Assembly: GCA_963611895.1 (NCBI GenBank)
Contig: CAVDTO010000002.1
Coordinates: 1 to 38,814 of the forward strand
Source of the DNA: a bacterium
GTDB lineage: Bacteria; Actinomycetota; Coriobacteriia; Coriobacteriales; Coriobacteriaceae
Direction: 5' to 3'
DNA: 38,814 nt
Part shown: piece after piece, positions 14,317-38,814 of the stretch
Layout: each line of letters opens with the position of its first letter
Position numbering within the stretch: the first letter of the stretch is position 1
Program-made: the position numbers and the translations under genes
The notes under the pieces: model-generated
What the model saw: only the letters and a program-made list of their open reading frames with translations
Told to the model about the DNA's origin: nothing
Databases searched by the model: none

Positions 14317-15564
14317 CTACTCGGCGTCTTCGAACGCGTTATAACGCTTGCCATGGAAGGCCCAGATGGCCGCCGCAAAGCCGATGGCGCAGAGCAGGGA
14401 GAGAACGAGGAACGCAGCCTTGTAGCCCGCAGTCGCGATGAAGGTCGCGGTGAACGAGCCGGCCACGGCGCACAAAAAGCGCGACGAGAACACGATGGCG
14501 CCGTTCGCGGTGGTGCGCAGAAGCGTCGGGAAGCACTCCTGCATCCAGACCTTGAGGATGCCCTCGAAGGCAAAGGCGGCGCCGACGCAGTAGAGAAGCT
14601 GGGTGGCGATGTAGGTATAGGTGGACGCGCCGAAGATCGGGAACATGAGGAAGCCGATGAGGTAGAGCGCGGCGCCCATGTAGAAGAGCGGCATGCGCTT
14701 GTCGGTATCGACGAACTTCATGAACACGAAGTCGAGGATGGCGCGGATCGGGTAGCAGATAAGGCCGATGGCGGACACGACGGAGATGGGCAGCGACACC
14801 ACGTTCGCGCCGATCCAGGTAGAGAACTGGCCGAGCGAGTTGGCCGGGATGTTCGTGCCGATGTAGAAGATCGCGAGCGCGATGAACGGCTTGGCGTACG
14901 GACTCTTGAACAGGTCGCTGACCTTGCCCTGAGCCTCCTCGCTCACCTTGCCGGCAAGACGGTCCTCGTGAGCCTTGACCCAGACGGGAGACTCAGGAAT
15001 GGTCTGGCGGGCGACGAGCACCAGGATGGAGACCACGGCGAGCTGGGTGAACATGATCTGGCCGCCCAGGTAGCCCCAGTCGCCCACGAGGGCGCCGATG
15101 CCCTGCGCCACGACGATGCCGACGACCCAGAGGATGTCGGAGAAGAGCAGCATCTTGCCGCGCTTGTCGTCGGGCGCCTCCTCGGCGATCGTCGCGAGCG
15201 AGACCGGCAGGTCGGCACCCACGCCGAGGCCCATGAGGATCTCGCCGAGCAGAAGCAGCGGGAACGTGGTTGCAAAGATCATGGTCACGGCGCCGACGAT
15301 CAGCATGGCCATGGTGACCGAGAAGACCGGCTTGCGGCCGAACCTGTCGCCCAGGCTTCCGCCCAAGATCGAGCCGATGGCGATGCAGAACGTCAGAGCG
15401 GCCGAAATGAGGCCGAACTGACCGTTATCGAGGCCGAACGTCGTCTGGTAGATGACGAGCGCGGTGCCCGACGAGATGATCGCGCACGAGTCGATGTAGG
15501 ACGCCATGCCCGAGACGACGGCCACCCACCACGGATTCACGTGGCGTTCGCGATTATTTCCCAT
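14317..15564 (-). CDS. MFS sugar transporter
   Basis: GSLGDRFGRK motif A, IPESP and ECFPTLLR sugar-porter-like motifs. Confidence 0.9.
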   Translation of the reverse strand: MGNNRERHVNPWWVAVVSGMASYIDSCAIISSGTALVIYQTTFGLDNGQFGLISAALTFCIAIGSILGGSLGDRFGRKPVFSVTMAMLIVGAVTMIFATTFPLLLLGEILMGLGVGADLPVSLATIAEEAPDDKRGKMLLFSDILWVVGIVVAQGIGALVGDWGYLGGQIMFTQLAVVSILVLVARQTIPESPVWVKAHEDRLAGKVSEEAQGKVSDLFKSPYAKPFIALAIFYIGTNIPANSLGQFSTWIGANVVSLPISVVSAIGLICYPIRAILDFVFMKFVDTDKRMPLFYMGAALYLIGFLMFPIFGASTYTYIATQLLYCVGAAFAFEGILKVWMQECFPTLLRTTANGAIVFSSRFLCAVAGSFTATFIATAGYKAAFLVLSLLCAIGFAAAIWAFHGKRYNAFEDAE

Positions 15565-15720
15565 ACTTTCCCCTTAGAATGAATGCGTTCGCCGCCCTTT
15601 TGAGCGACGAGATTCCGAGGCGGTCCCTTAATGCTCCCCAGCAGCAGGGCCGCCTTTTCTTCCCTATTGGCCCTCGGTTTAGAGGACGCACCGCCGCGAA
15701 CGGGCGCGGCGCCAACTCGG

Positions 15721-16551
15721 CTAGTCGACGAAGGCCTCGTTGATCTGGATGCCGAAGTCGCGGCAGGTGTCCTTGAGGCCCTGGTCCGAGATGACGTTCA
15801 GGAACTTGTCGCTGCCACCGTTGGCGGCACGCGCGGCCACGTAGAGCTGGGCAGCCTTCTCCACGGTATGCGCAAGGCCGAAGGTGGTGTCGAAGTCGGG
15901 GCCGGTGGCAAAGAGGCCGTGGTGCGCCCAGACGATGGCGTCATAGGTCTTCATGAGCTCGGAGCTGGCCTCGGCGATGGCGGGGCCGCCCGGGACCATC
16001 CAGGGCACGACGCCCACGCCGGTCGGGTACACGACGACGCACTCGGTCATCATCTGCCAGAGCACGCGCGTGAAGGCGCGGTCCTCGAGCGGCACGATGA
16101 AGCTCATCTCGATGATGCCCGGGGTGTGGGCGTGGTAGATCACGCGGTTCGCGCCGTCGGTGCGGGCGGCGGTCACGCAGTGGTTCATGTAGTGGCTCTC
16201 GAACTCGGAGGTCGGGCGGGCGCCGTTGGCGAGGCCCCACACGATGCGGAACGCGTCGCCGGTCTCGTTGATCTCGACGATGCCGATGTTCGCGTACGGG
16301 TCGCCGGCGACGTTGCGCATGTACTTGCCCGAGCCGGTGCTCACGAAGTACTGCCCGGCGAGGTTCTCGCCCTTAACGCCCATCTTGACCCACTCGCGCG
16401 GCTCCTCAAAGAAGGGCTTTGCGGCGGCGACCTCCTCGTCGGTCATGCGGTAGGTGAGGTTTCCGCCGTTGCGCTCGTGCCAGCCCTGCTTGAAGCCGTC
16501 GTCGCACAGTCGGCAGAAGCCCTTGATGAATTCCAGATCTTCCATTGCCAT
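15721..16551 (-). CDS. rhaD: Rhamnulose-1-phosphate aldolase
   Basis: GWHERNGGNLT, TGSGKY, PTSE, HAHT, WQMMTEC, VPWMVPG, WAHHG; ATG at 16551 after gaggag. Confidence 0.93.
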   Translation of the reverse strand: MAMEDLEFIKGFCRLCDDGFKQGWHERNGGNLTYRMTDEEVAAAKPFFEEPREWVKMGVKGENLAGQYFVSTGSGKYMRNVAGDPYANIGIVEINETGDAFRIVWGLANGARPTSEFESHYMNHCVTAARTDGANRVIYHAHTPGIIEMSFIVPLEDRAFTRVLWQMMTECVVVYPTGVGVVPWMVPGGPAIAEASSELMKTYDAIVWAHHGLFATGPDFDTTFGLAHTVEKAAQLYVAARAANGGSDKFLNVISDQGLKDTCRDFGIQINEAFVD

Positions 16552-16742
16552 GTTTCTCTCCTCTCCGGGGCCCGCAGGCCCAATGAACAACAGGTGGTAC
16601 TTCCGATACGGCCGGGCGCGGGCTTGGTGATGTAGGGACCCCGCGCCACTGCCGTCGGAGAGAGCCGCTCGCGCGCCGACGGGAGTCGATCGCCGCGCAC
16701 GGGGCTGGGAATAGTCGTGTGGCCGAATGGTCGGCCGCGAGT

Positions 16743-18230
16743 CTAGGCGGCCGCGCCCTCCGAGGGGTCGATCCGCTTGACGTCAAAGGAACGGGCCACG
16801 CAGGAGCGGGCGTCCGCGAGGTCGGCGAAGTCGCCGCCGGAGATCATCTGAACGATGAAGTTGCCGATGCACGTGCCCTCGATGGGCCCGGCGAAGACGG
16901 GCAGGCCGCAGGTGTCGGCCGTCATCTGGTTGAGGTAGTAGTCCTGGCAGCCGCCGCCCACGATGTTGATGCTCGTGTAGGAGCGGCCCGTGATCTCGGT
17001 AAGCCCCTCGATCGCCTTCTTGTAGGAACGCGTGAGGCTGCAGTAGTTGGTGCGCATGACCTGGCCGATGGTCTCGGGAACGGGCTGGCCGCCCTCGGCG
17101 CACGCGGCCTTGAGCTCGTCGATCATGGAATCGGGCGCAAGGAACCGCTCGTCGTCCACGTCGACGTAGGCGCAGAAGGGCTCGGCCTCGCGGCAGAGCG
17201 CGCGCAGCTCGTCGAACCCGACCTTGTGGTCCATGAGCGCCTTGTGCGCGGTCTTGCCCTCAACGTAGTTGACGCCGTTGACCTCGCGGCGCACGGACTG
17301 GTTCATCCACAGGCCCATGATGTTCTTGAGGAACCGGAAGCGCTTGAGGTAGCCGCCCTCGTTGGTGAAGTTCTCCTCGCGGGCGGCGTCCGTGGTGATG
17401 GGCTCGGCGTTCTCCACGCCGAGCAGGCTCCACGTGCCGCTCGAGATGTAGGCCGCGTTCTCGTCGCGCGCGGGCACGGCGAGGAAAGCCGAGCCGGTGT
17501 CGTGCGTGGCGGGAAGCACCACGGTGGCCGCGTAGCCGATGCGCTCGGCGATCTCGGGCAGGGTCTCGCCCAGCTCGGCGCTCGGCATCGTGGGCTTGAG
17601 GAACATGCCCACCGGAATGCCGAAGGTGAGGAGGAGCTGCTGGTCCCAGTCGCAGGTGCGGGCGTTGACCAGGCCCGTGGTGGTGGCGTTGGTGTACTCG
17701 TTGGCCTTTTTGCCGGTGAGGCGCCAGTTGAGGTAATCGGGAATCATGAGGAAGCTGCGGGCCGCCTCGAGCTGTTCCGGATGCTCGGCCTTGAGCGCGA
17801 GCAGCTGGTAGATGGTGTTGAAGGGCTGGCGCTGGATACCCGTGCGGGCGTAGACGTCGGCCGGGTCCATGATGGCGTCCGCCACCTCGAAGATGCCCTC
17901 GGTGCGCGCGTCGCGGTAGGCGACGGTGTCGCCCACGATTTGGTCGTTCTCGTCGAGCAGGACGAAGTCCACGCCCCAGGTGTCGATGCCGATGCTCGCG
18001 GGAGCCTCGCCCGTCTTCTCCTTGACGGCGGCAAGACCGGCGACCACGTGCTCGAACAGTGCCTCGACGTCCCAGCAGTCGTGACCGTTGCGGCGGACCT
18101 GCTCGTTATCGAAGCGGTAGACCTCGTCGTAGTGCATGGTGCCGTCCGCGACCCAGCCGGCGAGAACGCGCCCGCTCGAAGCGCCGATGTCGACCGCCGC
18201 GTAATGCTTAGTGTTGATGCGCTGCGCCAT
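16743..18230 (-). CDS. rhaB: Rhamnulokinase (FGGY family)
   Basis: AVDIGASSGR, IGIDTWGVD, YRDART, THDTGSA, SSGTWSLLG, FTNEGG, FLKNIMGLW. Confidence 0.93.
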   Translation of the reverse strand: MAQRINTKHYAAVDIGASSGRVLAGWVADGTMHYDEVYRFDNEQVRRNGHDCWDVEALFEHVVAGLAAVKEKTGEAPASIGIDTWGVDFVLLDENDQIVGDTVAYRDARTEGIFEVADAIMDPADVYARTGIQRQPFNTIYQLLALKAEHPEQLEAARSFLMIPDYLNWRLTGKKANEYTNATTTGLVNARTCDWDQQLLLTFGIPVGMFLKPTMPSAELGETLPEIAERIGYAATVVLPATHDTGSAFLAVPARDENAAYISSGTWSLLGVENAEPITTDAAREENFTNEGGYLKRFRFLKNIMGLWMNQSVRREVNGVNYVEGKTAHKALMDHKVGFDELRALCREAEPFCAYVDVDDERFLAPDSMIDELKAACAEGGQPVPETIGQVMRTNYCSLTRSYKKAIEGLTEITGRSYTSINIVGGGCQDYYLNQMTADTCGLPVFAGPIEGTCIGNFIVQMISGGDFADLADARSCVARSFDVKRIDPSEGAAA

Positions 18231-18266
18231 GTGATCCCCTAACTCGACGAACGCCCTGCCATTAGT

Positions 18267-18318
18267 TGAAGCGTTTCATTTGCAGTTGGTACTATACTCT
18301 GAAGCGCTTCAATTTCAA
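18267..18318 (-). promoter_or_regulatory. rhaB promoter (TTGAAA-N16-TATAGT) with two LacI-type operators
   Basis: Perfect palindrome TGAAGCGCTTCA at 18300-18311 in the spacer; TGAAGCGTTTCA at 18267-18278 downstream of the -10. Confidence 0.75.
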
Positions 18319-18662
18319 GCACGGATTCAGCGTTCAGCGACGCTTCCGGTGAACGGTCGATTTTTCGGGTGAACGGTCGGCGGCGGCGATGGAGCCGGCG
18401 ATGCCACTTAGGCCGGCAACAGGCCCAGCAACGGGCCCTTTGGCGGTCATGCCCGATCGCTTGCAGCTAGGCCACCCCGATGCCGATCGCGGGCAGCATC
18501 CCAGCTCAGGACTTTGGGGCTATCGCATTCGTCGAGCCCAGAGGACCTGCGTCTCGCCGGCCCTCGACGAAGGCATCGTCGGCCTCAACCGGCAACGCTC
18601 GCGGGCTTCCTTACTCGTCTCAAACAGCGGCGCTCACGGGAGCCCATCGGCTCGGTGCTAGA

Positions 18663-18693
18663 ATTGAAACCGTTTCAATCGCGGTCGTATGCT
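18663..18693 (+). promoter_or_regulatory. lacI-family gene promoter (TTGAAA-N18-TATGCT) overlapped by an operator-like palindrome
   Basis: attgaaac-c-gtttcaat at 18663-18679 covers the -35; probably autoregulatory. Confidence 0.6.
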
Positions 18694-18705
18694 CGGAGTT
18701 CAGTT

Positions 18706-19824
18706 ATGGCAAAGGTCAAGATCATCGACGTTGCGCGCGAGGCGGGAGTCTCGCTCGGCACCGTCTCGAACGCGCTCAACCACCCCGAGAAGGTCCGGCC
18801 CGACACCCTCAAGCTCATCCAAGAGACCATCGATCGGCTCGGCTACCTCCCCAACCAGAGCGCGCGCCAGCTCGCCGGCGGCCACACCAAGGCGTTCGGC
18901 CTCGTGCTCCCCCGCCTCGACCACGGCTTCTCGCTGCAGATCGCGAGCGGCGCGCACAACGAGGCGCGCAAGAACGGCTACGACCTGCTCATCGCCAACG
19001 CCGACAACGACGACATCCTCGAGGACCACTACCTGCGCTACTTCATGGGAACGCAGATGTCGGGCGTGCTCGTGCAGCCCATGGCCGCAACCGATTGGAA
19101 GCCCCCGGTGAACAGCACCCACACGCCAACGGTCTTCCTCGACATCCACTCCACCGAGCCCGGCTACTTCGTTGCCGCGAACAACGAGGCCCAGGGGCGC
19201 ATCGTCGCCGAGCACGCCGTGCAATGCGGGGCCACGCGCCTGGCGGTCATCGGGCGCGCGGCGTTCATGCAGCTCACTCTGCGCGTGAAGGGTATCAAGC
19301 TGGCGCTCGCGCAGCACCCCGAGATCAAGCTCGAGATCATCGACGCGGGTGAGTGGAACACCGCGGCCGACGGCTACAGCCTGGGCGCGCAGCTCGCCCA
19401 GCGCGCGAGCGACGAGCGGCCCGACTTCGTGATCGGGCTCACCGACGTTTTGGCCGCGGGCGCAATCGCGGGCCTCTGCCAGAACGGCGTGCTCGTGCCG
19501 TACAACACCCGCGTTGCGGGCTGCGACGGCAACCCCCTCGCCTGGAGCGGCTTTATGCCCATGACCACCGTGGCGCCCCCGGGCTACGAGATCGGCCGCC
19601 GCGGCGTGCAGATGCTCATGCGCCAGATCGAGAAGGACGAGCGTCCCGCGTCGACGCGCGTGCAGGTGGGCGCGCGCGGGAACATCATCCCGCCAGCGCC
19701 CGACAGCTCCTCGCCCGACAACCACCAGGAGCTCGTGCGGCCCTTCCTTTTGGAGCGCGCGAGCACGGCCGGCGCGGTCGCCGACGGCGTCTCGCCCGAG
19801 CTCAACCTGGGTGCGTACCTGTAA
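18706..19824 (+). CDS. LacI family transcriptional regulator
   Basis: IIDVAREAGVSLGTVSNALN HTH and LGYLPNQSARQL hinge; ATG at 18706. Confidence 0.95.
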   Translation: MAKVKIIDVAREAGVSLGTVSNALNHPEKVRPDTLKLIQETIDRLGYLPNQSARQLAGGHTKAFGLVLPRLDHGFSLQIASGAHNEARKNGYDLLIANADNDDILEDHYLRYFMGTQMSGVLVQPMAATDWKPPVNSTHTPTVFLDIHSTEPGYFVAANNEAQGRIVAEHAVQCGATRLAVIGRAAFMQLTLRVKGIKLALAQHPEIKLEIIDAGEWNTAADGYSLGAQLAQRASDERPDFVIGLTDVLAAGAIAGLCQNGVLVPYNTRVAGCDGNPLAWSGFMPMTTVAPPGYEIGRRGVQMLMRQIEKDERPASTRVQVGARGNIIPPAPDSSSPDNHQELVRPFLLERASTAGAVADGVSPELNLGAYL

Positions 19825-19846
19825 AACGGGGCCACCCCGTGGCTAT

Positions 19847-19911
19847 AGCCGGATTGCGCACACATCCAAACGTACACAGCGCACCAAATCAGCGCCGATA
19901 GCGCCTCAAGC
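19847..19911 (+). repeat. Diverged direct repeat, left of TM2-Fic islet
   Basis: 51/66 aligned positions identical to 21942-22007. Confidence 0.7.
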
Positions 19912-19960
19912 AAAAAAGCCGCCTACTGAGCCGGGGCAAGGGCAAGGAGCAACACCTGAC

Positions 19961-20044
19961 CTTCCCTATCGTTAGATAGAGAAGGTTGACCCTAGGGTCA
20001 AGCTTCCCTATCGTTAGATAGAGAAGGTTGACCCTAGGGTCAAG
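19961..20044. repeat. Exact 42-bp tandem duplication of a double-palindrome unit
   Basis: cttccctatcgttagatagagaaggttgaccctagggtcaag twice (19961-20002, 20003-20044). Confidence 0.95.
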
Positions 20045-20072
20045 CTAAATTGTTTAAGGAAAGCAGGTCAAC

Positions 20073-20408
20073 ATGTATTGCCCTAAATGTGGCTCAGCAA
20101 TCGACGACAACGCGACGTCATGCCCCAACTGCGGGGCCCAGCCGAGCCCAACCGCGGCCCCCGCGACGACCGTTAACGTCACCGTCCAGGCACCCGCAGG
20201 CGCACGGCCAGTGAACAAGGTGGCCTATGTCCTTCTCGCCTTCTTCCTTGGCGGGCTGGGAATTCATCATTTCTATGCGGGGAAAACCGCAGCTGGCGTC
20301 CTCTCTATCCTCTTCTGCTGGACCTTTATCCCAGCAATCGTCGCCTTTATCCAGGCGATCATCGCCCTTTGCAAGAGCGCAGACACTGCTGGCAACATCT
20401 ACATTTAA
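20073..20408 (+). CDS. Zinc-ribbon + TM2 (NINE) domain membrane protein
   Basis: CPKCG/CPNCG pair; NKVAYVLLAFFLGGLGIHHFYAG TM2 signature; lower GC than flanks. Confidence 0.9.
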   Translation: MYCPKCGSAIDDNATSCPNCGAQPSPTAAPATTVNVTVQAPAGARPVNKVAYVLLAFFLGGLGIHHFYAGKTAAGVLSILFCWTFIPAIVAFIQAIIALCKSADTAGNIYI

Positions 20409-20597
20409 ACCAGCGAGAAACTTCTGTCTTCGATCTAAGCCCCTACCCGAATCTCCGGATGTACGGGACCACATAAACATGCGAGCACCCGTTGCGCACG
20501 CCATCATCGGATACGCGCAACGGGTGCTCGCCTCTGTCCATGGCTAATCGTGTCGGTCCCGGCACTGGCGCGCCTTTGCCACCAGACTCCGTATCGA

Positions 20598-21644
20598 CTA
20601 CCAAACCCTTCGGTATGCCGTCGACCTGGCCGCACCCACTTTCTCAACCACACCCTCCGCCTGCAGTTTCTTGAGAATTCGCTCCACGGTTCGCTGACTC
20701 ATAGAGGGGTTGGCATCCATGATCTCGAGCTTTGTGGCAGTGCCCACCAACCGATTGAAATATGCGCGCAAAGTGCCCTCATTGCCGCCCGGGACTCCGG
20801 CGATCGCGATGCGCTGGTCCAGCTCCTTATAGCAGGCGCCGATCACGCCGAGCATGTACGTCACGAACGGCAGATAGTCGTTCTCGCCTGCGTGCCAGCC
20901 CGCGGAGCTAGCCGCCAGCGCCTCGTAATAGGTGGCCTTCGTGCGCTCAATCTCCTTCTCAATGGAGACGTACTTCCCGACCGTATAGCCGCAGCGATAT
21001 AGCAGCAGCAACGTTAGGAGTCTGCTCATGCGCCCGTTTCCGTCGTTGAACGGGTGGATACTCACGAAGTCGAAGACGAATAGCAGCGAGACGAGCAGCG
21101 GGTCGTAAAGTCCCAAATCAAGTTGGGCGTGATATTCCTCGCAGATCTTGGCAACGGCATCGGGCGTAGCGACGGCGCTCGTCGGCCTGAAGCGCGCGAC
21201 CATCTCCCCCGAGGCCGAGTACTCCGCAATCAGGTTATCCGTGTCCTTCCACCGGCCCGCAAAGGAATCGTTGTCATAACGATACAGATCACGGTGCAGC
21301 TGCAAAATCACGCCAGGAGTCACAGGAATGGCGTCGTGACTCTCGTGGATCATGTCGAGCACATATCGGTACCCGGCGATCTCGCGCTCGTCTCGGTTTT
21401 TCGGCGCGACCTTTTTGGCCATGAGCTCTCGCAGGCGCCTATCCGTAGTCGAGATGTTCTCGATTCGGTTTGAGGTGTCTGTGCTTTGAATCCTCGCCAC
21501 CTCGACAAGAGTCCTCAGTATCTCAGCGTAAGCGTTCTCATAGAGCACCTGCCTGCCGCGATGCTCCCTAATATCGGCAACGGCAGCAACAACCTGCGGG
21601 GTCATAAGAGACGCCAGCTGCCTTGCGTAATCGAACTGAGCCAA
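20598..21644 (-). CDS. Fic family protein (class II) with C-terminal winged HTH
   Basis: HPFNDGNGRMSR catalytic motif; SNRIEN inhibitory motif; SQRTVERILKKLQAEG HTH; probable TTG start at 21644 after gagg. Confidence 0.9.
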   Translation of the reverse strand: MAQFDYARQLASLMTPQVVAAVADIREHRGRQVLYENAYAEILRTLVEVARIQSTDTSNRIENISTTDRRLRELMAKKVAPKNRDEREIAGYRYVLDMIHESHDAIPVTPGVILQLHRDLYRYDNDSFAGRWKDTDNLIAEYSASGEMVARFRPTSAVATPDAVAKICEEYHAQLDLGLYDPLLVSLLFVFDFVSIHPFNDGNGRMSRLLTLLLLYRCGYTVGKYVSIEKEIERTKATYYEALAASSAGWHAGENDYLPFVTYMLGVIGACYKELDQRIAIAGVPGGNEGTLRAYFNRLVGTATKLEIMDANPSMSQRTVERILKKLQAEGVVEKVGAARSTAYRRVW

Positions 21645-21721
21645 GTATCCTCGCCACCCTTCAAGTACCCTCGCCATTTTACAGTATTTGGCGATGATAT
21701 TACCCAAGTGGCGAGGATACT
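21644..21721. promoter_or_regulatory. Four-copy 13-bp operator-like array over the fic promoter/RBS
   Basis: AGTATCCTCGCCA (21644), AGTACCCTCGCCA (21664), inverted copies at 21689-21701 and 21709-21721. Confidence 0.7.
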
Positions 21722-21772
21722 CATGCTCAAAGCGACGAGCTCAATCCGGGCGAGCGCCGCTCAAACAGACCG

Positions 21773-21908
21773 CCCCTTGCGTTTCGCACTTTAAAACTGG
21801 ATTCGCCGAGTAGTCGAGCGGCCGCCAGCCACGTTTGCCCAGTTGGCGGCTTGTACCACTTTTCCGGCTACTCGCCCATCCCAGTTTTAAAATGCGAAAC
21901 GCAAGGGG
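21773..21908. repeat. 136-bp MITE-like element with 28-bp inverted ends
   Basis: ccccttgcgtttcgcactttaaaactgg (21773-21800) vs ccagttttaaaatgcgaaacgcaagggg (21881-21908), 1 mismatch. Confidence 0.75.
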
Positions 21909-21941
21909 TAGGCTCCCGCGCGACCCCAACACCACAGCCGC

Positions 21942-22007
21942 AGCCGGATTGTGTACATACCGGGACGTACACAACACGCCGAATCGGCGCCGATAAGCGC
22001 TTAAAGC
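21942..22007 (+). repeat. Diverged direct repeat, right of TM2-Fic islet
   Basis: Matches 19847-19911. Confidence 0.7.
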
Positions 22008-22047
22008 CCCCGTTATGTACATGGTTAGGTGTACACAACGGGGGCTT
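22004..22047 (-). terminator. 18-bp stem hairpin, possible terminator of the HAD gene
   Basis: aagcccccgttatgtaca / tgtacacaacgggggctt, 1 mismatch. Confidence 0.5.
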
Positions 22048-22158
22048 GTTCACGACGAGAAGTGCAAACTCAGGATTCTGCGCAGGCGGGTTGGACCACA
22101 GCAGCCAGTAGTTGGTGCGCATGACCTGTAAGGGGCGCCGCGCCGGCCGCCCTCTGCC

Positions 22159-22809
22159 CTACCCGAGCCTCTTCACCTCGGCGGGAACCTCGTGGAGCGT
22201 GTCGAGCACGGCGGCGCAGGCATCCACGACGTCCTCGGGCAGCACGACCATGTCGGGGATGGCAAGCACCTGCATGCCCGCGCTGATGCCCGCGCGGGCG
22301 CCGTTGGTGGAATCCTCCACGACCACGCACTCCGCGGGATCCACGCCGAACTTACTCGCGGCCTTGAGGTAGATGTCGGGCTGGGGCTTGCCGCGCTCGG
22401 CCTCCTCGCCGCAGGTGGTGAGCTCAAAATACTTGCGCAGGTCAAACTGCCCCAAGCGGCGCTCGGCGGTCTCGGTGCGCGACGAGGTCACAAGGCCCAG
22501 GCGATAGCCGGCGTCGAGCAGCTCCTGCAGGCACTCGTTCACGCCCGGCTTGGTCTCGAGCTGGGTCGGCGCCCACTCGGTCTCGTAGACGGCATGGCGG
22601 TCGTAGACGTCCTGCGCGAGCTCCTCGGAGCCCACGCACTGGGCGCAAAGTGCCAGCACGTCGGTCTTGTTGTGGCCGATGAACGATTTGCTCACCTCGT
22701 GCGGGATCTCGATGCCGAGGTCCACGGCAACCTGGTCCCAGGCCTTGATCCCCAGCCGCTCGGTGTCTACGAGCGTTCCGTCCATATCGAACAACACGAC
22801 CTTGATCAT
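22159..22809 (-). CDS. HAD-IA family phosphatase (beta-phosphoglucomutase/CbbY-like)
   Basis: FDMDGTLVDTE, LVTSS, KPQPDIY, VEDSTNG; ATG at 22809 after gggaga. Confidence 0.92.
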   Translation of the reverse strand: MIKVVLFDMDGTLVDTERLGIKAWDQVAVDLGIEIPHEVSKSFIGHNKTDVLALCAQCVGSEELAQDVYDRHAVYETEWAPTQLETKPGVNECLQELLDAGYRLGLVTSSRTETAERRLGQFDLRKYFELTTCGEEAERGKPQPDIYLKAASKFGVDPAECVVVEDSTNGARAGISAGMQVLAIPDMVVLPEDVVDACAAVLDTLHEVPAEVKRLG

Positions 22810-22935
22810 GGGCACTCTCCCTCTGCGCGACCGATTCAACACCTGTATTTTGCCAGATTGAGACCTCAGTAGAGCCCGCCCCGCGCCCGCCGCGCGGCTT
22901 GCTATAGTGAACGGCAACCAAAACCGGGAGGTCTC

Positions 22936-23841
22936 ATGCCCAGCCAAGCAACCGAAGACAAGCTCATGCAGCTCGAGAACCTGCTCGAGTCGTACGGCCG
23001 TGTTGCCATCGGCTTTTCCGGCGGAGTCGACAGTACCTTCCTCGCTGCCGTCTGCCAGGCCGTCATGCCCTACGACACCCTGCTCGTACACCTCACCACG
23101 CCGTTCATCGGCACACCTGAACAGGCGTCGTTCAAGTCGGCCGTCAAGGGGGCCGGAAGGCGCGCCGAGCGCCACGTCTTCTACGACAAGGGCGGCGCGG
23201 CGCACCTGGACCTCAAGGTGCTCGAGCTCAAGATAAGCCAGCTGCAGAGCGCCGATGTGGTAAAGAACGACCCCGATCGCTGCTACCACTGCAAAAAGCT
23301 CGGCTTTGCGCGCATCGTAGAGGAGGCGCGCAAGCGCGGTTTTGACACGGTAATCGACGGCAGCAATGCGAGCGACGCGGGCGATTATCGCCCCGGCATG
23401 CGCGCGGTGGAGGAACTCGGCGTGAAGTCGCCCCTCATGGAGGTGGGCTTTACCAAAGACGAGGAGCGCGAATACCTGCGCGAGTGGGGGTTCGACGTGT
23501 GGAACATGCCCTCGGGAGCCTGCCTTGCCACGCGCATTCCCACGGGCGAGCCGCTCACGCGCAAGAAGCTCGACCTCGTGCGCAGCATCGAGGACGAGCT
23601 GCACAAGCTCGGGCTCGTTCAGGTCCGCGCGCGGCTCGTGGGCGGCAGGCTGAACATCGAGGCAAGCCCGAGCGACCTTGCGACCCTGCGCACGCTCGGG
23701 GGCACCGAGACCGAGGGCGGCGCCGTTGCGCTGCCGGCAAACCTGCAGCGCAAGCTCGATCTGCTCGGCGCGCACGACCTCGACCCCATCGCACGCCCGT
23801 ACGGCAAAGGCAACATGAACGCCCCCGAGAACAGGACGTAG
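22936..23841 (+). CDS. larE: LarE-family ATP-dependent sulfur transferase (PP-loop)
   Basis: FSGGVDS PP-loop, DRCYHCK, DGSNASD, DYRPG, ACLATRIP; RBS ggagg. Confidence 0.85.
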   Translation: MPSQATEDKLMQLENLLESYGRVAIGFSGGVDSTFLAAVCQAVMPYDTLLVHLTTPFIGTPEQASFKSAVKGAGRRAERHVFYDKGGAAHLDLKVLELKISQLQSADVVKNDPDRCYHCKKLGFARIVEEARKRGFDTVIDGSNASDAGDYRPGMRAVEELGVKSPLMEVGFTKDEEREYLREWGFDVWNMPSGACLATRIPTGEPLTRKKLDLVRSIEDELHKLGLVQVRARLVGGRLNIEASPSDLATLRTLGGTETEGGAVALPANLQRKLDLLGAHDLDPIARPYGKGNMNAPENRT

Positions 23842-24101
23842 GGCCGGTCCGGCCGGTCGTTGGCGGGTGCAGTGATCGATAGCGACCGGCAGCCGGGATC
23901 CCAGACTGCCGTCCGGCTGCCCGAGCGCCAAGCCGAAGGACCGGTCGACCGCGACGCCTTCGCGCCCTCGCCCGATCGTCCGCTCAACCAGCCACCCGCC
24001 CGGGCAACCATGGCGTCGTTTGCGCCCTGCGTGCTCGCTCGGCCGTTCAGCCGGCCACCGGCCCGGGGCCCGCGCATCTACCCAAAGAAAGGAATCCCCG
24101 C

Positions 24102-25001
24102 ATGCCCAAGCGCCCGATGAACAAACGCTCGCCAAAGCGCGGCGCCGGCTCCCGCCAGGCACAGGCGGTCGGCGCATGCATCGCGCTCGTCGTCGCGCTC
24201 GCAGCGGGAGTCGCGGGCCAGCTCACGGGCAACGTTGAGCTCACGAACCTCGGCCAGCAGATCGAGCAGACAGTCCTCGGCGGCGAGAACGGCACGGGCG
24301 CCAGCCCCTCGAAGGGCAACTCAACCTCAAGCTCATCCGCCGCCTCGAGCACGCGCGACGAGACCGCCGACTACGCCGCGAGCGTCGCGGACCTCGGCAG
24401 CGTTCCCGAATACACAAGCTCGCCTTACGCGGTCATCGCCGCAAGCGGCGAGCACGAACTCGGCACGCCCTCGTTCACCAAAAGTGAAATCAAGCGCGCA
24501 AAGGCGGGCACGTTCAAGCAGTTCAGCGACCTCGACCGGCTCGGGCGCTGCGGAACGGCTTTTGCATGCCTCGGCACTGAGACTCAGCCTACTGGCGAGC
24601 GCAAATCAATCAGCAGCGTCAAGCCCACCGGGTGGCGCCAAGCCTTCTATAGCAACGTCGACCAAGAGGCGCTCTACAACCGCTGCCACCTCATTGCTTG
24701 GTCGCTCTCGGGCGAGAACGCCAACCCCAAGAACCTCGTCACGGGCACGCGCTACCTCAACGTGAGCGGCATGCTGCCGTTTGAGGAACGGCTCTGCCGC
24801 TACATCGAGAACACGGGCAACCACGTGCTCTACCGCGTGACCCCGATCTTCGAGGGCGAGGAGCTCGTCTGCCGCGGCGTGCACCTGGAGGCGCAGTCGG
24901 TCGAGGATAACGGCGCAAGCATCTGCTTCAACGTCTACTGCTACAACGTGCAGCCGAACATCCAGATCGACTACGCCACAGGCGCCAGCCAGGAGGCATA
25001 A
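24102..25001 (+). CDS. Secreted/membrane-anchored DNA/RNA non-specific endonuclease (EndA-like)
   Basis: N-terminal basic+hydrophobic segment; LDRLGRCG, YNRCHLIA, NLVTGTRYLN, VLYRVTP, VYCYNVQP. Confidence 0.9.
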   Translation: MPKRPMNKRSPKRGAGSRQAQAVGACIALVVALAAGVAGQLTGNVELTNLGQQIEQTVLGGENGTGASPSKGNSTSSSSAASSTRDETADYAASVADLGSVPEYTSSPYAVIAASGEHELGTPSFTKSEIKRAKAGTFKQFSDLDRLGRCGTAFACLGTETQPTGERKSISSVKPTGWRQAFYSNVDQEALYNRCHLIAWSLSGENANPKNLVTGTRYLNVSGMLPFEERLCRYIENTGNHVLYRVTPIFEGEELVCRGVHLEAQSVEDNGASICFNVYCYNVQPNIQIDYATGASQEA

Positions 25002-25034
25002 AAATGGCGGGGCGCTCTGGGGAAGCGCCCCGCC
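25000..25034 (-). terminator. Intrinsic terminator (GH78 operon; possibly bidirectional)
   Basis: 11-bp stem ggcggggcgct / agcgccccgcc followed by attttt on the minus strand. Confidence 0.7.
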
Positions 25035-25181
25035 TGGGGGAAGAGGGAAAATCGATTGTTAGGTGCGGCTGCCGACAACCGGCGTCGCGCAGCACCGAAA
25101 GGCACGGACCCGGGCGGCCCGACTGCCCGAGCGACCAGGCATCGGGCAGTCAGGCACCGTCCGTACCGCTCCGCCGCTCGC

Positions 25182-27566
25182 CTACTCGCCGCTCACGTCC
25201 ACGCGGCAGCTCAGCTCGTAGTCGCCGGGGCCGAGCTCGCGCTCGTCCTGGCCGGGGAGCGCAACGTGCGCAACGCAGCCCTCGGGCACGCAGACGCTCA
25301 CCTTGACGAGGCCGTCCTCCGCGCGATGCCACGCAACCGAGATGCGCCCGCACGGCGTCTCGTGCTCGAGCTCGGCAAAGTCGAGCCCCGCCGGGAACAG
25401 CGGCGCAACGTCGAACTCCTTGTAGCCCGGCTGCCTGATCGCCAGGCCGCCGATCTTGCGGACCATCCAGTCGCCCACGCAGCCGAAGGCGTAGTGGTTG
25501 AACGAATGGGCGCCCACCGTGCCGTCGGGAGCGACGCCGGCCCAGTTCTCCCAGATCGTCGTGGCGCCGCGGTCGACCTCGTAGAGCCAGCCGGGGCAGT
25601 CCTTTTGCCAAAAGACCTTCTCGGCCACGTCTCCGTAGCCCCAATCGCCCAGCACGTCGAGCAGGTACGGGATGGAGAGGAATCCGGTGTCGAGCCGGTA
25701 GCCGTTGTCGGCGATCATCTGAACGAGGTGCGCGGCCGCGGCCGGGCGCTCCTCCTCGGGCAGCATGTCAAACGCCAGCGCGAGCACATAGCAGCCCTGG
25801 TACTCAACCGAGAGCTTGCCGCACCCGTCAGAGAACCGGCGCGCAAAGGCGCTGCGCACGCACCGGGCGTAGGCGCGCTCCTGCGCCGCGCGCTCGGTGT
25901 GGCCGAGCAGCTCCGACACACGCGAGAGCACCTCGCTCGTGTGGGCCAAAAAGCAGGTGGCCACGAGCGGGCCCGTAACCTGGGCGGCCGCGATCGGGCC
26001 CTTGGCGTTGGGCCCCATCAAGAAGCTCGGCAGCATCCAGTCGCCGTAATGGAACTTGGTGTCCCAGATGAACGGCGACTCGTCCTGCGCGTCGGCCTTG
26101 CCCTCGGCGGCGCTCTTCACGCAGAAGTCGCTCCAGCGGATCATCGCGTCGTAGCAGCGCTTGAGCGGCTCGAGGTCGCCGTACTCGCGGTAGAGCGCCC
26201 ACGGCACGAGCACGATGGCGTCGCCCCAGCCGGCCGACGAGATGGCACCCAAGAACTCACCCGAATCGAACTCGTCCTTGGTGGCCGGCGAGTAGTCGAT
26301 GACCTGGCCGTCGGGCAGCTGGTCGGCCATGACCTGGTCGAGCCAGCGCATGAGGAACCCCTTGAGGCCCATAAAGAAGCAGCCCGTGGGCGCGTAGACC
26401 TGAATATCGCCCGTCCAACCCGAGCGCTCGCGCTGCGGACAGTCCGTGGGGATGGAGAGCATGTTGCCGCGCTGGCTCCACTCGATGTTAGAGAGCAGGC
26501 GGTTCACGCGCTCATCGGAGGTCACGAGCGAGCCCGTCTTGGGCAGCTCGGAGTAGATGACCACGGCGTGCACGGCGGCGGGGTCGAGCGGGGCTGTGAG
26601 TCCCGAGATGCGCACGTAGCGGAACCCGTGGAACGTGAACTCCGGCTCGAGCACCTCGTGGCGCCCGCGGCCCACGAACACGTCGCGGGCGTCTTTGTTG
26701 CGCCCGATGATGTTGTTAAAGAACCTGCCCTCGGCGTCGAGCACCTCGGAATGCTCAAGCACGACCTCTTGCCCCTCGGCGAGGTCGAGCTCCAAGCGCA
26801 CGCGGCCGGCGATGACCTGGCCAAAGTCCACGACCGTCGATGCACCCTCCTGCCAGCAGGAACAGGCGTCGAGCAGGCACATGCGCTTTACGAGCGGGCC
26901 CTCCTGCTCGATGATCTGCGCCGCGGGCGGGGCGACAACCGTCACCCGGTCCCAGCCGTCCGTCTCGGGCACGGTGGCCCAAGCGTCATCGGCCAGGCGC
27001 AAGTCCTGCTTCTCGCCGATCTGGATGTCGGAGTACACGTAGCGCTCCGTCGTCGAGCGCCACGAGCCGTCAGTTCCCACGAGCTCGCTCGAGCCGTCAG
27101 CGTAAACGAGCTCGATCTCGCCCAAGAGCGAAAGGCGGTCGCCGTACTGGGCGCTGTTGCCCTGCGTGGAGATGCGCCCGGCGAACCAGCCGTCGGCGAG
27201 CGTGGCGCCCCACACGTTGACGCCCTCGCGCAGAAGGCCCGTGACGTCGTAGACCTGGTACATGATGATGTGCTCGTACGAGGTGTAGTCGGGCGTGAAA
27301 ATCGCATCGGTCACGGCCGCACCATTGAGCGTGGAGCCGTAGAGGCCGCGGGCGCTCATGTAGAGCGTGGCCTTGGCGAGCGGCTTTTCCACCTTGAACG
27401 CGCGCTTAAGGATGTGCACGGGCCACAGGCGCGTCTCGGGCGCGCCAGGCTCGGGCGGCTGCTTGCCCTCGATGAACATCTCGCGCAGGGAGTACGACGC
27501 CTCGCGGCTCACGGTCTCTTGCGCCGGCTCGATCCAGTGAGCCGTCCAAGAACGCTGGGTATGCAT
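25182..27566 (-). CDS. Alpha-L-rhamnosidase, glycoside hydrolase family 78 (no signal peptide)
   Basis: DFGQ, FTFHGFRYV, PTDCPQRERSGWTGD, GATTIWENW, SFNHYAFG. Confidence 0.93.
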   Translation of the reverse strand: MHTQRSWTAHWIEPAQETVSREASYSLREMFIEGKQPPEPGAPETRLWPVHILKRAFKVEKPLAKATLYMSARGLYGSTLNGAAVTDAIFTPDYTSYEHIIMYQVYDVTGLLREGVNVWGATLADGWFAGRISTQGNSAQYGDRLSLLGEIELVYADGSSELVGTDGSWRSTTERYVYSDIQIGEKQDLRLADDAWATVPETDGWDRVTVVAPPAAQIIEQEGPLVKRMCLLDACSCWQEGASTVVDFGQVIAGRVRLELDLAEGQEVVLEHSEVLDAEGRFFNNIIGRNKDARDVFVGRGRHEVLEPEFTFHGFRYVRISGLTAPLDPAAVHAVVIYSELPKTGSLVTSDERVNRLLSNIEWSQRGNMLSIPTDCPQRERSGWTGDIQVYAPTGCFFMGLKGFLMRWLDQVMADQLPDGQVIDYSPATKDEFDSGEFLGAISSAGWGDAIVLVPWALYREYGDLEPLKRCYDAMIRWSDFCVKSAAEGKADAQDESPFIWDTKFHYGDWMLPSFLMGPNAKGPIAAAQVTGPLVATCFLAHTSEVLSRVSELLGHTERAAQERAYARCVRSAFARRFSDGCGKLSVEYQGCYVLALAFDMLPEEERPAAAAHLVQMIADNGYRLDTGFLSIPYLLDVLGDWGYGDVAEKVFWQKDCPGWLYEVDRGATTIWENWAGVAPDGTVGAHSFNHYAFGCVGDWMVRKIGGLAIRQPGYKEFDVAPLFPAGLDFAELEHETPCGRISVAWHRAEDGLVKVSVCVPEGCVAHVALPGQDERELGPGDYELSCRVDVSGE

Positions 27567-35580: not shown

Positions 35581-35705
35581 CCGGAATAAAGATCTGCTGC
35601 TCGAACAGTCCTGCTCGCACGGAGAGCACATTAAGTGCTCTCCGGCTCGTGCGGAACTCGCGACAGACCTTTATTCCGGCCACTCGCGCCTACCGCGACT
35701 CGATT
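35581..35705. repeat. REP/REPIN-like structured element, left copy
   Basis: Core palindrome ggagagcac-attaa-gtgctctcc inside outer stem ccggaataaagatctg / cagacctttattccgg; 35606-35663 is the exact reverse complement of 38757-38814. Confidence 0.9.
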
Positions 35706-35790
35706 AGCAGCGGGGACCCAGCGAAGGCGTCCTACGCTTAACCGCCTACGGCCCTCGGACCAACCGCATATCACGGACAGCATCCCCCTG

Positions 35791-35828
35791 AAAAAGAGCG
35801 GCCAACCCGTTTGGATTGGCTGCTCTTT
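35791..35828 (-). terminator. Intrinsic terminator of the surface protein gene
   Basis: aaagagcagccaatcc-aaac-gggttggccgctcttt extending into a T run on the minus strand. Confidence 0.75.
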
Positions 35829-35890: not shown

Positions 35891-38476
35891 TTACATGGAG
35901 AAGGCGGGGACAACACTGCAGGCATTGCAGACGTGACTGACGCCCGGACGGCCGTCCGAGTTCACACCGCCGAAGAGGTAGGAGATGCCGACATACGGCG
36001 AGCGGAGCCACCAAAACGTGGAGTAGTAGCCCGCGGGACGCGAACCAGACCGCGTCTTCCACATGTCCTCGATGGCGGAGTTGACGGTGCTCCAGTCGTC
36101 CTTCGCGTTGACGCCCTTAGCCTTGAACCAGTCATACTGGGGGCCCTCGACCTTGAAGGAGCCATCGCCTATGAGCGTGTTGGCCTCGGAGCTGTCCCCG
36201 AAGACCTCGCTATTCGACAGCAGCCAGAACTTGTCGGAGGTGGCGGAGACCTTCCACTGGCCGGTGCTGTCCGAGGCGGCCGCCTTGCTCACTTCGATAG
36301 CCGCATCTTTAAGGCCGGAGAGGCCCGCCTGCACGTAGCCGTCGTCGCCGAACACCGTTTTGCGCATAGCCGACGAGGCCCAGCCGCCAGCGTTTGTCCG
36401 CTCGGAGTTCATCTGCTGGGCGGTGGGCAGCGAATGAGTCGCCGCGAAGGTCAGCGCGGAGCCGTCCTTGTCGTGGGCGCCCACCTGGATGATGCGGAAC
36501 TCGACGTACTTGTCCTTGCTGTTCGCGTCGGTCACGTCGGACCCGTTCCACTTGGTGTACAGGTGGTACTCGCCCTTCTCCATGATCTTCTCGTACTCGC
36601 CGATGACCGCCGCGTCCCCGGCTTTAATCTTGGCGACGTCGGCCTTGATCTCGGCCTCGCTCTTGTAGACGACGTCGGCCTTGGTCCCACCCTTGCCGTC
36701 AGAGACGGCGTTGTCCAAATCAGAATAGCTGGCATCCGCTGCAGCAAACCAGAAGCCGCCCAGCTCGAACTTAATGGTGAAGGACTTGGAGAGCCCGACA
36801 TCGAGCTCGGTCGGCAGCGCGTAGTTGGAGGCTGCGTCGCCCTTACTCGAAAAGCCCTCCACCGTGACGGTGTAGGCGCCGGCATCGGTCGGGGCCCCTT
36901 CCAGGCCCTCACCCTCAGACACCTTGTAGGCGTACACGGGGGCGAGCTCGTCGCTCCCGACAGCCCCGCCGATGGTTGCGGTCGGGGAATGTTTTTCGCC
37001 GTCATAGGTGTACTCGGCGTCGCCCTTGGGCTTCCAGGTCACCGTCACCGTCTTGGGGCCGATCTTGAAGTTGCCGGCGGCGTAGGAGACCTCGTAGTTG
37101 CCCTGGACGGCGTCGCCTGCCGGGACGATGGCGGCCTCGTACTCGCCGGCATCTTCCACGTCGACGTTGCTGCGGGAGACGGCGTACTCGACGAGGCCCT
37201 CGTCCTCGCCGGCCACCAGGCCGGAGACGGTCGCGGTGAAGGTCGGGTCCTTCTCGCCGTAGACCTTGGTCGCATCGTTGGCGGCGACGGAGACCTTGGC
37301 ACGCTCGACCTCGAAGCTCAAGGTCGCGGAACCCGTGTAGTTGCCCTTGAACTTCACGGTTGCCTTGGCGGTGCCGGCGTTCACGCTGTCGGAGTAGGTG
37401 ACGTCGTAGTCGGTGCCCTGCTCGAGGCCCTCGGGGACGCCCTCGACGGCGGGCTCGTGGGCCTCGCCGTCGTAGGTGAGCATGTCTTCGGCCAGCTTGA
37501 GCGCGCCCGCGTCGATCGCCTGCGGGTCGATGGTGAACTCGAGCGTCTTGAAGCCGGTGTGGCTGCCGATGCCCGTGACGGTCGCGGTCGCGGTGCCGGC
37601 GTCCACGTTGTCCCTGTACTCGACCTTGTAGTCGGTACCCTCCACCAGGCCGTCCAGGCCGGTGATGGCGGGCGTCTTGGCCTTGCCGTCGTAGGTGAAC
37701 TCGGTCGTGCTGAGCCCGACCTTGGAAAAGTCGATGGCCTTGGCGGAACCGTCGCCCTTGTCGTCGGCGTCGTCGGTCTTGCCGTCGGCTTTGTCGTCGG
37801 CGCCGCCCTTGTCGGTGTCCTTGGCGGAGTCATCGGTCACGTAACTATAGGCGACGGTGCCCACGCGGACCTTCTCGCCCTTCTTCCAGTCGGCGGGCAG
37901 CTTGGAGTTTGCGGCCCACTTGATCGTGAGCGTCTTGCCGGGCTCGACGGTCTTGCCGGCCGCGTCGCTGGTCCAGCCGCTGACGAAGCCGTAATCGGAG
38001 ACGACCTTGGCGCCCTCGAGGACGACCGCGGAGCCCGTCTCATTCTTGAGCTCCACGTCGGGAACGGAGATGCTGCCGTCGGCGTCGTAGGTCGCGGTGA
38101 TCTCGGACGTGGCGGTGAAGACACCGTTCTCGCCGCCCGCAAAGGCAAGCGACGTGCCGGCGAAAAGCGTCGCCGCGACGCCCAGGACGGCGACCGCGAG
38201 CGCGAGCGAGGACCTCATCGGCGAGCGCTTGCCCCTGAGACCGACGGCTGCCGCGACGGCGAAGAGCGCGACGCCGGCGACGGCGAGCAGCGCGGCGGAA
38301 GCCCCGTCGCCCGTCCCGGGCAGCGAGACGCCCAGGGCAGCGGCGGCCTTGCCGGGAGCCAGGTAGACGGCGGTGGCCGCCGAGTCCGTCAGCACCCCGG
38401 CCAGAGCATGGTTAACGGGCAGGGCGAGCGTCAGCGCCGCAGCGAGCACGGCCGCAGCGCAGGCCAGCGGCCTCAA
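35891..38476 (-). CDS. Large surface protein: N-terminal LPxTG plus second signal peptide, YDG/MBG-like stalk repeats, C-terminal DUF6273-like domain; natural start probably ATG 38511, out of frame through a G7 tract
   Basis: LPGTG+TM+RGKR at aa 52-84; two TYDG...GTDY...NAGTA-type repeats; MBG-like KVYGEKDP...GNY; C-terminal GGWASSAMR, DKFWLLS, WWLRSP...VVPAF. Confidence 0.85.
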   Translation of the reverse strand: MRPLACAAAVLAAALTLALPVNHALAGVLTDSAATAVYLAPGKAAAALGVSLPGTGDGASAALLAVAGVALFAVAAAVGLRGKRSPMRSSLALAVAVLGVAATLFAGTSLAFAGGENGVFTATSEITATYDADGSISVPDVELKNETGSAVVLEGAKVVSDYGFVSGWTSDAAGKTVEPGKTLTIKWAANSKLPADWKKGEKVRVGTVAYSYVTDDSAKDTDKGGADDKADGKTDDADDKGDGSAKAIDFSKVGLSTTEFTYDGKAKTPAITGLDGLVEGTDYKVEYRDNVDAGTATATVTGIGSHTGFKTLEFTIDPQAIDAGALKLAEDMLTYDGEAHEPAVEGVPEGLEQGTDYDVTYSDSVNAGTAKATVKFKGNYTGSATLSFEVERAKVSVAANDATKVYGEKDPTFTATVSGLVAGEDEGLVEYAVSRSNVDVEDAGEYEAAIVPAGDAVQGNYEVSYAAGNFKIGPKTVTVTWKPKGDAEYTYDGEKHSPTATIGGAVGSDELAPVYAYKVSEGEGLEGAPTDAGAYTVTVEGFSSKGDAASNYALPTELDVGLSKSFTIKFELGGFWFAAADASYSDLDNAVSDGKGGTKADVVYKSEAEIKADVAKIKAGDAAVIGEYEKIMEKGEYHLYTKWNGSDVTDANSKDKYVEFRIIQVGAHDKDGSALTFAATHSLPTAQQMNSERTNAGGWASSAMRKTVFGDDGYVQAGLSGLKDAAIEVSKAAASDSTGQWKVSATSDKFWLLSNSEVFGDSSEANTLIGDGSFKVEGPQYDWFKAKGVNAKDDWSTVNSAIEDMWKTRSGSRPAGYYSTFWWLRSPYVGISYLFGGVNSDGRPGVSHVCNACSVVPAFSM

Positions 38477-38592: not shown

Positions 38593-38621
38593 ACTTTAAT
38601 CTATGCTGCAGGGGGGGTCAA
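38593..38621 (-). promoter_or_regulatory. Sigma70-type promoter TTGACC-N17-TAAAGT with a C7 tract running from the -35 into the spacer
   Basis: Minus strand ttgaccccccctgcagcatagattaaagt. Confidence 0.6.
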
Positions 38622-38715: not shown

Positions 38716-38814
38716 AACCGAGTCACGGTAGGCCGGAGGTCCGGAGCAAAGGTCCATCGCGAGTTCCGCACGAGCCGGAGAGCACTTAATGTGCTCTCCG
38801 TGCGAGCAGGACTG
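38716..38814. repeat. REP/REPIN-like structured element, right copy (inverted, truncated by window end)
   Basis: 58-bp exact inverted match to 35606-35663 plus a diverged extension. Confidence 0.9.

What the first reader, a model, noticed from the sequence alone, without database searches (positions are those of the whole stretch)
35891..36040. C-terminal end looks like a remote DGR variable region
Seen: of the 27 codons after WWLRSP (35995-35915, YVGISYLFGGVNSDGRPGVSHVCNACS), 24 end in a pyrimidine. The other three are scaffold-like GTG, TCG and CCG. Six end in T despite the very high GC3 elsewhere, and Q/E/K/M/W are absent. Known: DGR adenine mutagenesis converts template AAY codons to NNY, which cannot encode those five residues, and VRs typically lie at the C-terminus of CLec-like domains. 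No RT, Avd or TR is visible in the window, so this would be a trans target (inference).
Basis: partly seen in the sequence, partly recalled or inferred. Interest (0 to 1): 0.8.

Follow-up and report, generated by a model that had tools for sequence, protein, structure and literature searches.

The report
Orphan DGR tip on surface adhesin
The tip of this gut-bacterial surface protein was once rewritten by a diversity-generating retroelement, but no template or enzyme for it was found, so it is most likely a frozen leftover, one of many in a family of look-alike adhesins.

Summary
The codon pattern is as described (24 of 27 pyrimidine-ending, 6 T, no Q/E/K/M/W), though alone it is only moderately rare (10 of 1034 ORFs; 2 at a C-terminus). 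It ends an 861-aa membrane-anchored MBG-repeat protein whose last domain is DUF6273, a C-type-lectin-like fold (best match IgA peptidase N-terminal domain, Z 13.5) and a known DGR target. Sixty homologues show a DGR footprint. Against its closest relative the tip differs at codon positions 1/2/3 in 12/11/4 of 17 variable codons, versus 26/36/41 of 147 upstream. A column-specific T/C third base is kept across genomes. The variable codons sit on the AAY codons of real templates from the same order. No reverse transcriptase, Avd or template was found in this genome (87% complete) or in four homologue-rich genomes with 15-38 DUF6273 matches each. No template found anywhere fits (best about 24% non-adenine mismatches, against 0-1% for true pairs). 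In nine strain clusters of homologues the tips are near-invariant. Verdict: a genuine DGR-written variable repeat, most likely an orphan relic (0.65), as described for Treponema denticola; an active trans target is not excluded (0.2).

The parts
35891..38476 (-). 861-aa surface protein gene: hydrophobic N-terminus, MBG repeats, C-terminal DUF6273 (CLec-like) domain; start codon chosen mechanically
38132..38476 (-). three hydrophobic segments (aa about 1-29, 56-82, 87-115): signal and/or membrane anchor (inferred)
   Evidence: Kyte-Doolittle windows >1.6
37067..37480 (-). MBG_3 (aa 333-393) and MBG_2 (aa 396-470) stalk domains; a related direct repeat lies at 37323-37661
35894..36757 (-). extended DUF6273 / C-type-lectin-like domain (aa about 574-861; Pfam core aa 722-860)
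   Evidence: Pfam E 5e-10; profile span; model pLDDT 93; match to 9qa6 Z 13.5, rmsd 2.7, 176 aligned
35897..36030 (-). variable repeat (VR): 17 NNY variable codons between fixed scaffold codons (WWLRSP, FG, V, G, P, VVPAF); 5' boundary approximate
35790..35828 (-). terminator-like hairpin starting about 63 nt after the stop codon
35606..35705 (.). copy of a genus-wide palindromic REP-like repeat, inverted relative to the upstream copy
38716..38814 (.). second REP-like copy upstream; the contig ends in it
38593..38621 (-). sigma-70-like promoter match (9 of 12), consensus only

Best explanation
The gene encodes a membrane-tethered adhesin-like protein: MBG repeats hold out a C-type-lectin-like DUF6273 domain whose last ~40 residues form the binding face (function inferred from fold and architecture). 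Those codons were written by DGR mutagenic retrohoming from a template with AAC/AAT codons at about 17 positions. Adenines at codon positions 1-2 were randomised and the third base was kept (footprint shown; the enzyme and template are inferred). The writer was probably a chromosomal Coriobacteriales DGR of the kind found in G322 and G307, serving dispersed targets. It has since been lost, or the gene reached this genus by lateral transfer without it. The tip is now a fixed variant kept by ordinary selection.
For: Footprint: window vs closest homologue L032 differs at positions 1/2/3 in 12/11/4 of 17 variable codons, 2/1/4 of 22 scaffold codons and 26/36/41 of 147 upstream codons. Versus low-GC L034, third-position identity is 0.39 upstream and 0.77 in the VR. 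The window has T in 5 of 7 family T-columns and 1 of 10 C-columns (Fisher p=0.018; upstream T-columns 2 of 20). 14 AAY codons of the real G322 template fall on variable codons. Paralog pairs L036/L039 (14/11/4 vs 17/14/26 of 142) and L034/L052 (14/12/1 vs 23/28/31 of 147) show rewriting after duplication. Relic: no RT by PF00078, three single queries or an 8-RT profile in G000; no TR in an adenine-tolerant scan; no RT match in G251, G252, G253 or G781 (only); no RT/Avd or TR-VR pair in the homologue loci. Tips differ by 0-3 of the last 45 residues in nine strain clusters whose bodies differ by up to about 8-10%. Tips grade from fresh (16/17) to decayed (2/17). The domain DNA is absent from 250 other genomes of the genus. 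The tip shares 6 of 13 variable codons with L034 of another family, the top value of 190 pairs.
Against: All RT-negative genomes are draft assemblies (G000 87% complete, 274 contigs), and DGR loci break assemblies. The window's tip is among the fresher ones (14 of 17 columns concordant, no purine third base) and keeps T's against a 7% T3 background, so rewriting was not very ancient. The window's own protein cluster has one member, so its freezing is inferred from homologues, not shown. DGR RTs are common in the genus (41 of 144). The variable columns were picked by eye from the same alignment, and rows are related, so the p-values overstate. In G251 and G252 as wholes there is no VR excess of third-position identity.
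Confidence: 0.65

Rival explanations
1. Active remote target: a chromosomal DGR exists in this organism but fell into the missing 13% or unbinned contigs, and still rewrites this tip in trans.
For: Fresh signature. Chromosomal-looking DGRs with surface DUF6273 targets and same-register templates exist in the order: G307 (L236) and G322 (L225). Remote targets are documented (PMC5758913, PMC4891356, PMC10907252 passages).
Against: It needs the same cassette to be missed in G000, G251, G252, G253 and G781. Template patterns found nothing in 401 class and 251 family genomes. Nine strain clusters are frozen. G253 paralogs disagree at non-adenine sites and in length, so one current template cannot explain them.
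Confidence: 0.2
2. Hit-and-run writer: a mobile DGR (prophage or other element) visits these lineages now and then and rewrites resident adhesin tips in trans, leaving repertoires of fixed variants.
For: Fresh tips are scattered over the tree of the upstream domain (15 changes, shuffled mean 17.2; at least 7 forced by supported branches). Tips in low-GC genes are C-rich and alike across genomes. Prophage-type DGRs are common in the order.
Against: No mobile template matches. Wu et al. found remote targets almost only for non-phage DGRs (PMC5758913 passage). Tip swapping by recombination between paralogs and species would give the same scatter.
Confidence: 0.1
3. No DGR origin: a binding face under positive selection, rich in small polar and aromatic residues with pyrimidine-ending codons.
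For: P(Y>=24 given the amino acids)=0.12, and 69 of 1034 ORFs have a similar window. In close pairs third positions differ at about the upstream rate, which selection alone also predicts. The IgA peptidase DUF6273 domain is described with no mention of a DGR in the passages read.
Against: Selection on protein cannot keep third bases across genomes whose upstream synonymous sites are saturated (0.39 vs 0.77), fix T or C by column, or place variable codons on template AAY codons.
Confidence: 0.05

Closest known systems
Orphan DGR target genes of Treponema denticola isolates lacking RT and TR (PMC4891356, passages)
   Same: Surface proteins with a CLec tip and VR footprint, dispersed on the chromosome, no RT or TR in the genome; read there as leftovers of a lost core DGR
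   Different: There the cognate TR is known from sister strains; here none was found. Domain is DUF6273 on MBG stalks in Coriobacteriales, with 15-38 domain matches in some genomes
DUF6273 DGR targets of gut phages: tentaclins, Faecalibacterium phages Taranis and Roos (PMC10743442, PMC11792537, passages)
   Same: Same Pfam domain, VR at its C-terminus, same WWLRSP...VVP frame
   Different: Phage structural genes with RT, Avd and TR in cis; about 30% identity; this one is chromosomal, membrane-anchored, flanked by REP-like repeats and an ABC transporter operon
Chromosomal-looking DGRs of G307 (L236) and G322 (L225)
   Same: Same order; surface or membrane DUF6273 target aligning over the whole extended domain (27-29%); template in the same register
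   Different: Complete cassettes; templates differ from this VR (G322: 23 of 83 non-adenine sites), so not cognate
N-terminal domain of Thomasclavelia ramosa IgA peptidase, PDB 9qa6 (PMC12402451, PMC12237041, passages)
   Same: DUF6273, enlarged C-type-lectin-like fold; Z 13.5, rmsd 2.7 over 176 residues
   Different: 15% identity; N-terminal and fused to an M64 protease; this protein has no protease domain

Membership tests
DGR target gene (VR-bearing) | CLec-like or Ig domain with the variable segment at its C-terminus | tested here: met
   PF19789 E 5e-10; fold matches 9qa6 Z 13.5, weaker to Lcl 6.2 and TvpA 5.5
DGR target gene (VR-bearing) | Variation among relatives at codon positions 1-2 with third base retained (AAY to NNY) | tested here: met
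   columns chosen from the same alignment
DGR target gene (VR-bearing) | Variable codons in register with AAY codons of real templates | tested here: met
   G322 template, 14 AAY codons, with one codon gap
Active DGR (cis or trans) | Cognate template repeat differing only at adenines | tested here: not met
   none in G000 (assembly 87% complete); best foreign templates 15/63, 20/83, 23/83 non-A mismatches vs 0-1 of 92-110 for true pairs
Active DGR (cis or trans) | DGR reverse transcriptase in the genome | tested here: not met
   incomplete assembly, so absence is not proven
Active DGR (cis or trans) | Avd or other accessory gene | tested here: inconclusive
   4-sequence Avd profile found nothing in G000; Avd is divergent and not universal
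Active DGR (cis or trans) | IMH and hairpin just 3' of the VR | tested here: inconclusive
   only a terminator-like hairpin about 63 nt downstream; 3' flanks shared within genomes, not between; IMH cannot be defined without the template
Active DGR (cis or trans) | Population variation at the VR | not testable with these tools
   no run listed for this locus; cluster of one; homologue clusters near-invariant
Prophage-borne DGR target | Location among phage structural genes | tested here: not met
   25 window ORFs scanned gave transporters, sugar enzymes, EF-G-like and Fic families, no phage family; the contig ends about 340 nt upstream of the gene

The most novel reading that the evidence does not exclude
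Coriobacteriales gut bacteria carry repertoires of up to dozens of lectin-tipped surface proteins whose tips were each rewritten after duplication by a DGR that is not a stable resident. A visiting or periodically regained retroelement would stock an RT-less genome with a fixed, antibody-like adhesin library, and finished tips also move between families.
Probability: 0.2. Interest if true: 0.7.

Novelty: new member of a known kind. Interest (0 to 1): 0.38.

Why it matters
DGR surveys anchor on the RT and miss remote or orphan targets (stated in PMC8144416, passage), so families like this are invisible to them. The single gene is an ordinary relic. The wider family (15-38 DUF6273 matches in three genomes and 30 profile matches in a fourth, all without an RT match, with tips from fresh to decayed) is a natural record of DGR gain and loss and a testable case for episodic trans diversification of host-facing adhesins. 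I found no paper on it in five library searches; the library is partial and supplements of the DGR surveys were not read.

Tried and rejected
Template search in G000: blastn word 7, adenine-tolerant scan, two patterns: nothing. Patterns in 401 class genomes and 251 genomes of G253's family: 0; these patterns were guesses and had no true positive control beyond one VR hit. Viral contigs: 0 for three patterns; two searches returned 6 and 3 loci that are unrelated phage DGR templates. Phage and plasmid collections by DNA: only short chance hits; plasmids by protein: none. Metagenome contigs: no relative confirmed in two scans. Sequencing runs: none was listed, so no read test. The RT in G255 is a 514-aa non-DGR-looking RT that the G307 DGR RT did not match. 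18 of 50 RT loci gave no template by my motif and were not scored. Single-sequence fold failed (pLDDT 33). The careful tree did not finish; the quick tree leaves the real DGR targets on long branches, so their placement is not claimed. Rfam: no match. The inverted REP-like flanks were considered as an invertible or transposon unit and rejected as unsupported: the repeat is genus-wide with about 11 copies in G000. Record titles of homologue loci (Prevotella, Oribacterium and others) disagree with the genome grouping and were not relied on.

Full report
Observation. The finding lies at the 3' end of a minus-strand ORF, 35891-38476, 861 aa. The 27 codons at 35995-35915 have third bases C 18, T 6, G 3 and no Q/E/K/M/W, exactly as reported. 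As a stand-alone statistic it is modest. In a crude set of 1034 ORFs, 69 have a window with >=24 pyrimidine endings and no QEKMW, 10 also have >=6 T, and 2 of those do so at the C-terminus. Given the amino acids, P(Y>=24)=0.12 and P(T>=6)=0.03. Codons 541-600 of the same gene are as T-rich.

The protein. It has three N-terminal hydrophobic segments, two MBG domains and a C-terminal DUF6273 (E 5e-10), the only DUF6273 in the assembly. A model built on 61 sequences has pLDDT 93. Its best structural match is the N-terminal domain of T. ramosa IgA peptidase (9qa6, Z 13.5, rmsd 2.7, 176 aligned), followed by weaker C-type-lectin-like domains including the Treponema DGR protein TvpA (Z 5.5). Passages of PMC12402451 and PMC12237041 call that domain DUF6273 and C-type-lectin-like. 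Passages of PMC11792537 and PMC10743442 show DUF6273 is a DGR target with the VR at its C-terminus. The gene is chromosomal, upstream of an amino-acid ABC operon and between two inverted copies of a genus-wide REP-like repeat. The genome is in Coriobacteriales by inference: homologue genomes titled Senegalimassilia group with a family that the class search lists as the same order. The very large genus suggests Collinsella (recalled, not shown).

Is the tip DGR-written? A genome scan gave 78 homologue loci; 60 with an intact standard C-terminus were codon-aligned with the window. Against the closest homologue L032, the window differs at codon positions 1/2/3 in 26/36/41 of 147 upstream codons, 12/11/4 of 17 variable codons and 2/1/4 of 22 scaffold codons. 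Against L034, from a gene with GC3 0.47, third-position identity is 0.39 upstream but 0.77 in the tip. Third bases are column-specific. With columns defined from the other 60, the window has T in 5 of 7 T-columns and 1 of 10 C-columns (p=0.018), against 2 of 20 upstream T-columns. I chose the 17 columns by eye and the rows are related, so these values overstate. Upstream columns also show some T/C heterogeneity (chi-square 82 on 26 df, against 148 on 16 in the tip). An independent check is the register: the 14 AAY codons of a real template from G322 fall on the variable codons, with one codon gap. Paralog pairs within one genome show the same pattern (L036/L039, L034/L052), so rewriting happened after duplication at dispersed loci. 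G251 and G252 as wholes show no excess, because many of their tips are decayed; concordance runs from 16 of 17 down to 2 of 17, and the window scores 14. I put the DGR origin at about 0.93.

Is there a writer? In G000: no PF00078, no match to the Taranis RT, none to eight RTs singly or as a profile, none to an Avd profile, and no template by blastn or an adenine-tolerant scan. G000 is 87.2% complete in 274 contigs. G251, G252 and G253 hold 27, 38 and 15 DUF6273 matches and G781 holds 30 profile matches. None gave an RT match (G781 tested with one query only). No TR-VR pair was found in 78 loci and no RT or Avd in those and 30 further loci. The queries work: RTs were found in 50 of 401 class genomes (41 of 144 in the genus) and 52 of 301 genomes of G253's family. 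I recovered TR-VR pairs in 19 of 20 loci examined; their own VRs have 0-1 non-adenine mismatches in 92-110 sites, whereas the window VR has at best 15 of 63 and 23 of 83. In 50 further RT loci (some repeats), 32 gave a template and the best was 20 of 83; 18 were not scored. Two cassettes look chromosomal and target surface or membrane DUF6273 proteins: G307 (LRR plus DUF6273, beside carotenoid genes) and G322. They show that such targets are real in this order, but they are not cognate.

Is it active? No reads were listed and the protein is a cluster of one. In nine clusters of homologues (15 of 48 members seen for the largest, plus five near relatives; all members for the others) the last 45 residues differ by 0-3 while bodies differ by up to about 8-10%. 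The tips are frozen between strains. The domain DNA is absent from 250 other genomes of the genus, and the window tip shares 6 of 13 variable codons with L034 from another family, the highest of 190 pairs. Both point to import of an already written gene or tip. Against an old relic: the tip is fresh-looking and keeps T's that the genome's bias would erode. Fresh tips are scattered over a quick tree of the upstream domain (15 changes, shuffled mean 17.2), which fits repeated rewriting or tip swapping.

Mechanism. Shown: architecture, fold, AAY-to-NNY footprint, rewriting after duplication in relatives, absence of RT and TR in the assemblies searched, frozen tips in homologue clusters. Inferred: adhesin function, a chromosomal DGR as writer, its loss or the gene's transfer without it. 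Odds: relic 0.65, active target with unassembled cassette 0.2, hit-and-run mobile writer 0.1, no DGR origin 0.05.

Comparison with what is known. It works like a DGR target and meets the target features tested; it fails the tests for an active system (template, RT) within an incomplete assembly. Orphan targets in RT-less T. denticola isolates are described as leftovers of lost cassettes (PMC4891356, passages). Remote targets are known and nearly confined to non-phage DGRs (PMC5758913, passages), trans activity is reported in Thiohalocapsa (PMC10907252, passages), and prophage DGRs are known in Eggerthella lenta (PMC8778435, passages). All nine papers were seen as keyword passages only; no supplements were read, and survey tables may already list cassettes like those of G307 and G322. 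Earlier notes of this scan report similar orphan DUF6273 tips in other genomes (unchecked).

Verdict. A real DGR footprint, most likely an orphan: a new member of a known kind, interest 0.38. The part worth following is the large RT-less paralog repertoires in related genomes.

Noticed in passing
G251, G252, G253; G781: Genomes of 1.5-1.9 Mb with 27, 38, 15 and 30 DUF6273-family matches, some proteins with several tandem domains (up to 8 of this subfamily in P0088), and no RT match; tips range from fresh to decayed.
   Followed up: partly
L236:5381-11944 (G307:C14): Complete chromosomal-looking DGR: LRR plus DUF6273 target, a repeat-rich surface protein gene, Avd, TR and RT, next to carotenoid-like genes; TR-VR 16 differences, all at adenines.
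   Followed up: partly
L225:6925-10206 (G322:C15; same template in G789): DGR with a zinc-ribbon, membrane-anchored DUF6273 target among other zinc-ribbon membrane proteins; 26 TR-VR differences, all at adenines.
   Followed up: partly
window 35606-35705 and 38716-38814: Palindromic REP-like repeat, about 11 copies in G000 and matched in 24 of 24 genus genomes; often at contig ends; no Rfam match.
   Followed up: partly
L116-L145, L146-L148: DGR RTs in 41 of 144 genomes of the window's genus, most with one near-identical template; G001's lies among phage tail and lysis-like genes; G161 and G084 share another template with DUF6273 targets.
   Followed up: partly
L164:424-578: VR with a partial internal duplication that shifts the frame, a likely retrohoming error.
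   Followed up: no
L034, L058, L062, L064, L069, L072, L083 3' flanks: G253 paralogs share a ~30-nt sequence right after the stop codon; G252 paralogs share a different one. Could be a homing signal or a trace of duplication.
   Followed up: no
L032-L109 record titles: Titles such as Prevotella, Oribacterium and Eubacteriales conflict with the genome grouping that places G252, G253 and G255 in one family of the window's order.
   Followed up: partly
window 12704-27566: Sugar catabolism cluster (isomerase, MFS, aldolase, FGGY kinase, alpha-L-rhamnosidase) interrupted by a Fic protein and a non-specific endonuclease gene.
   Followed up: no
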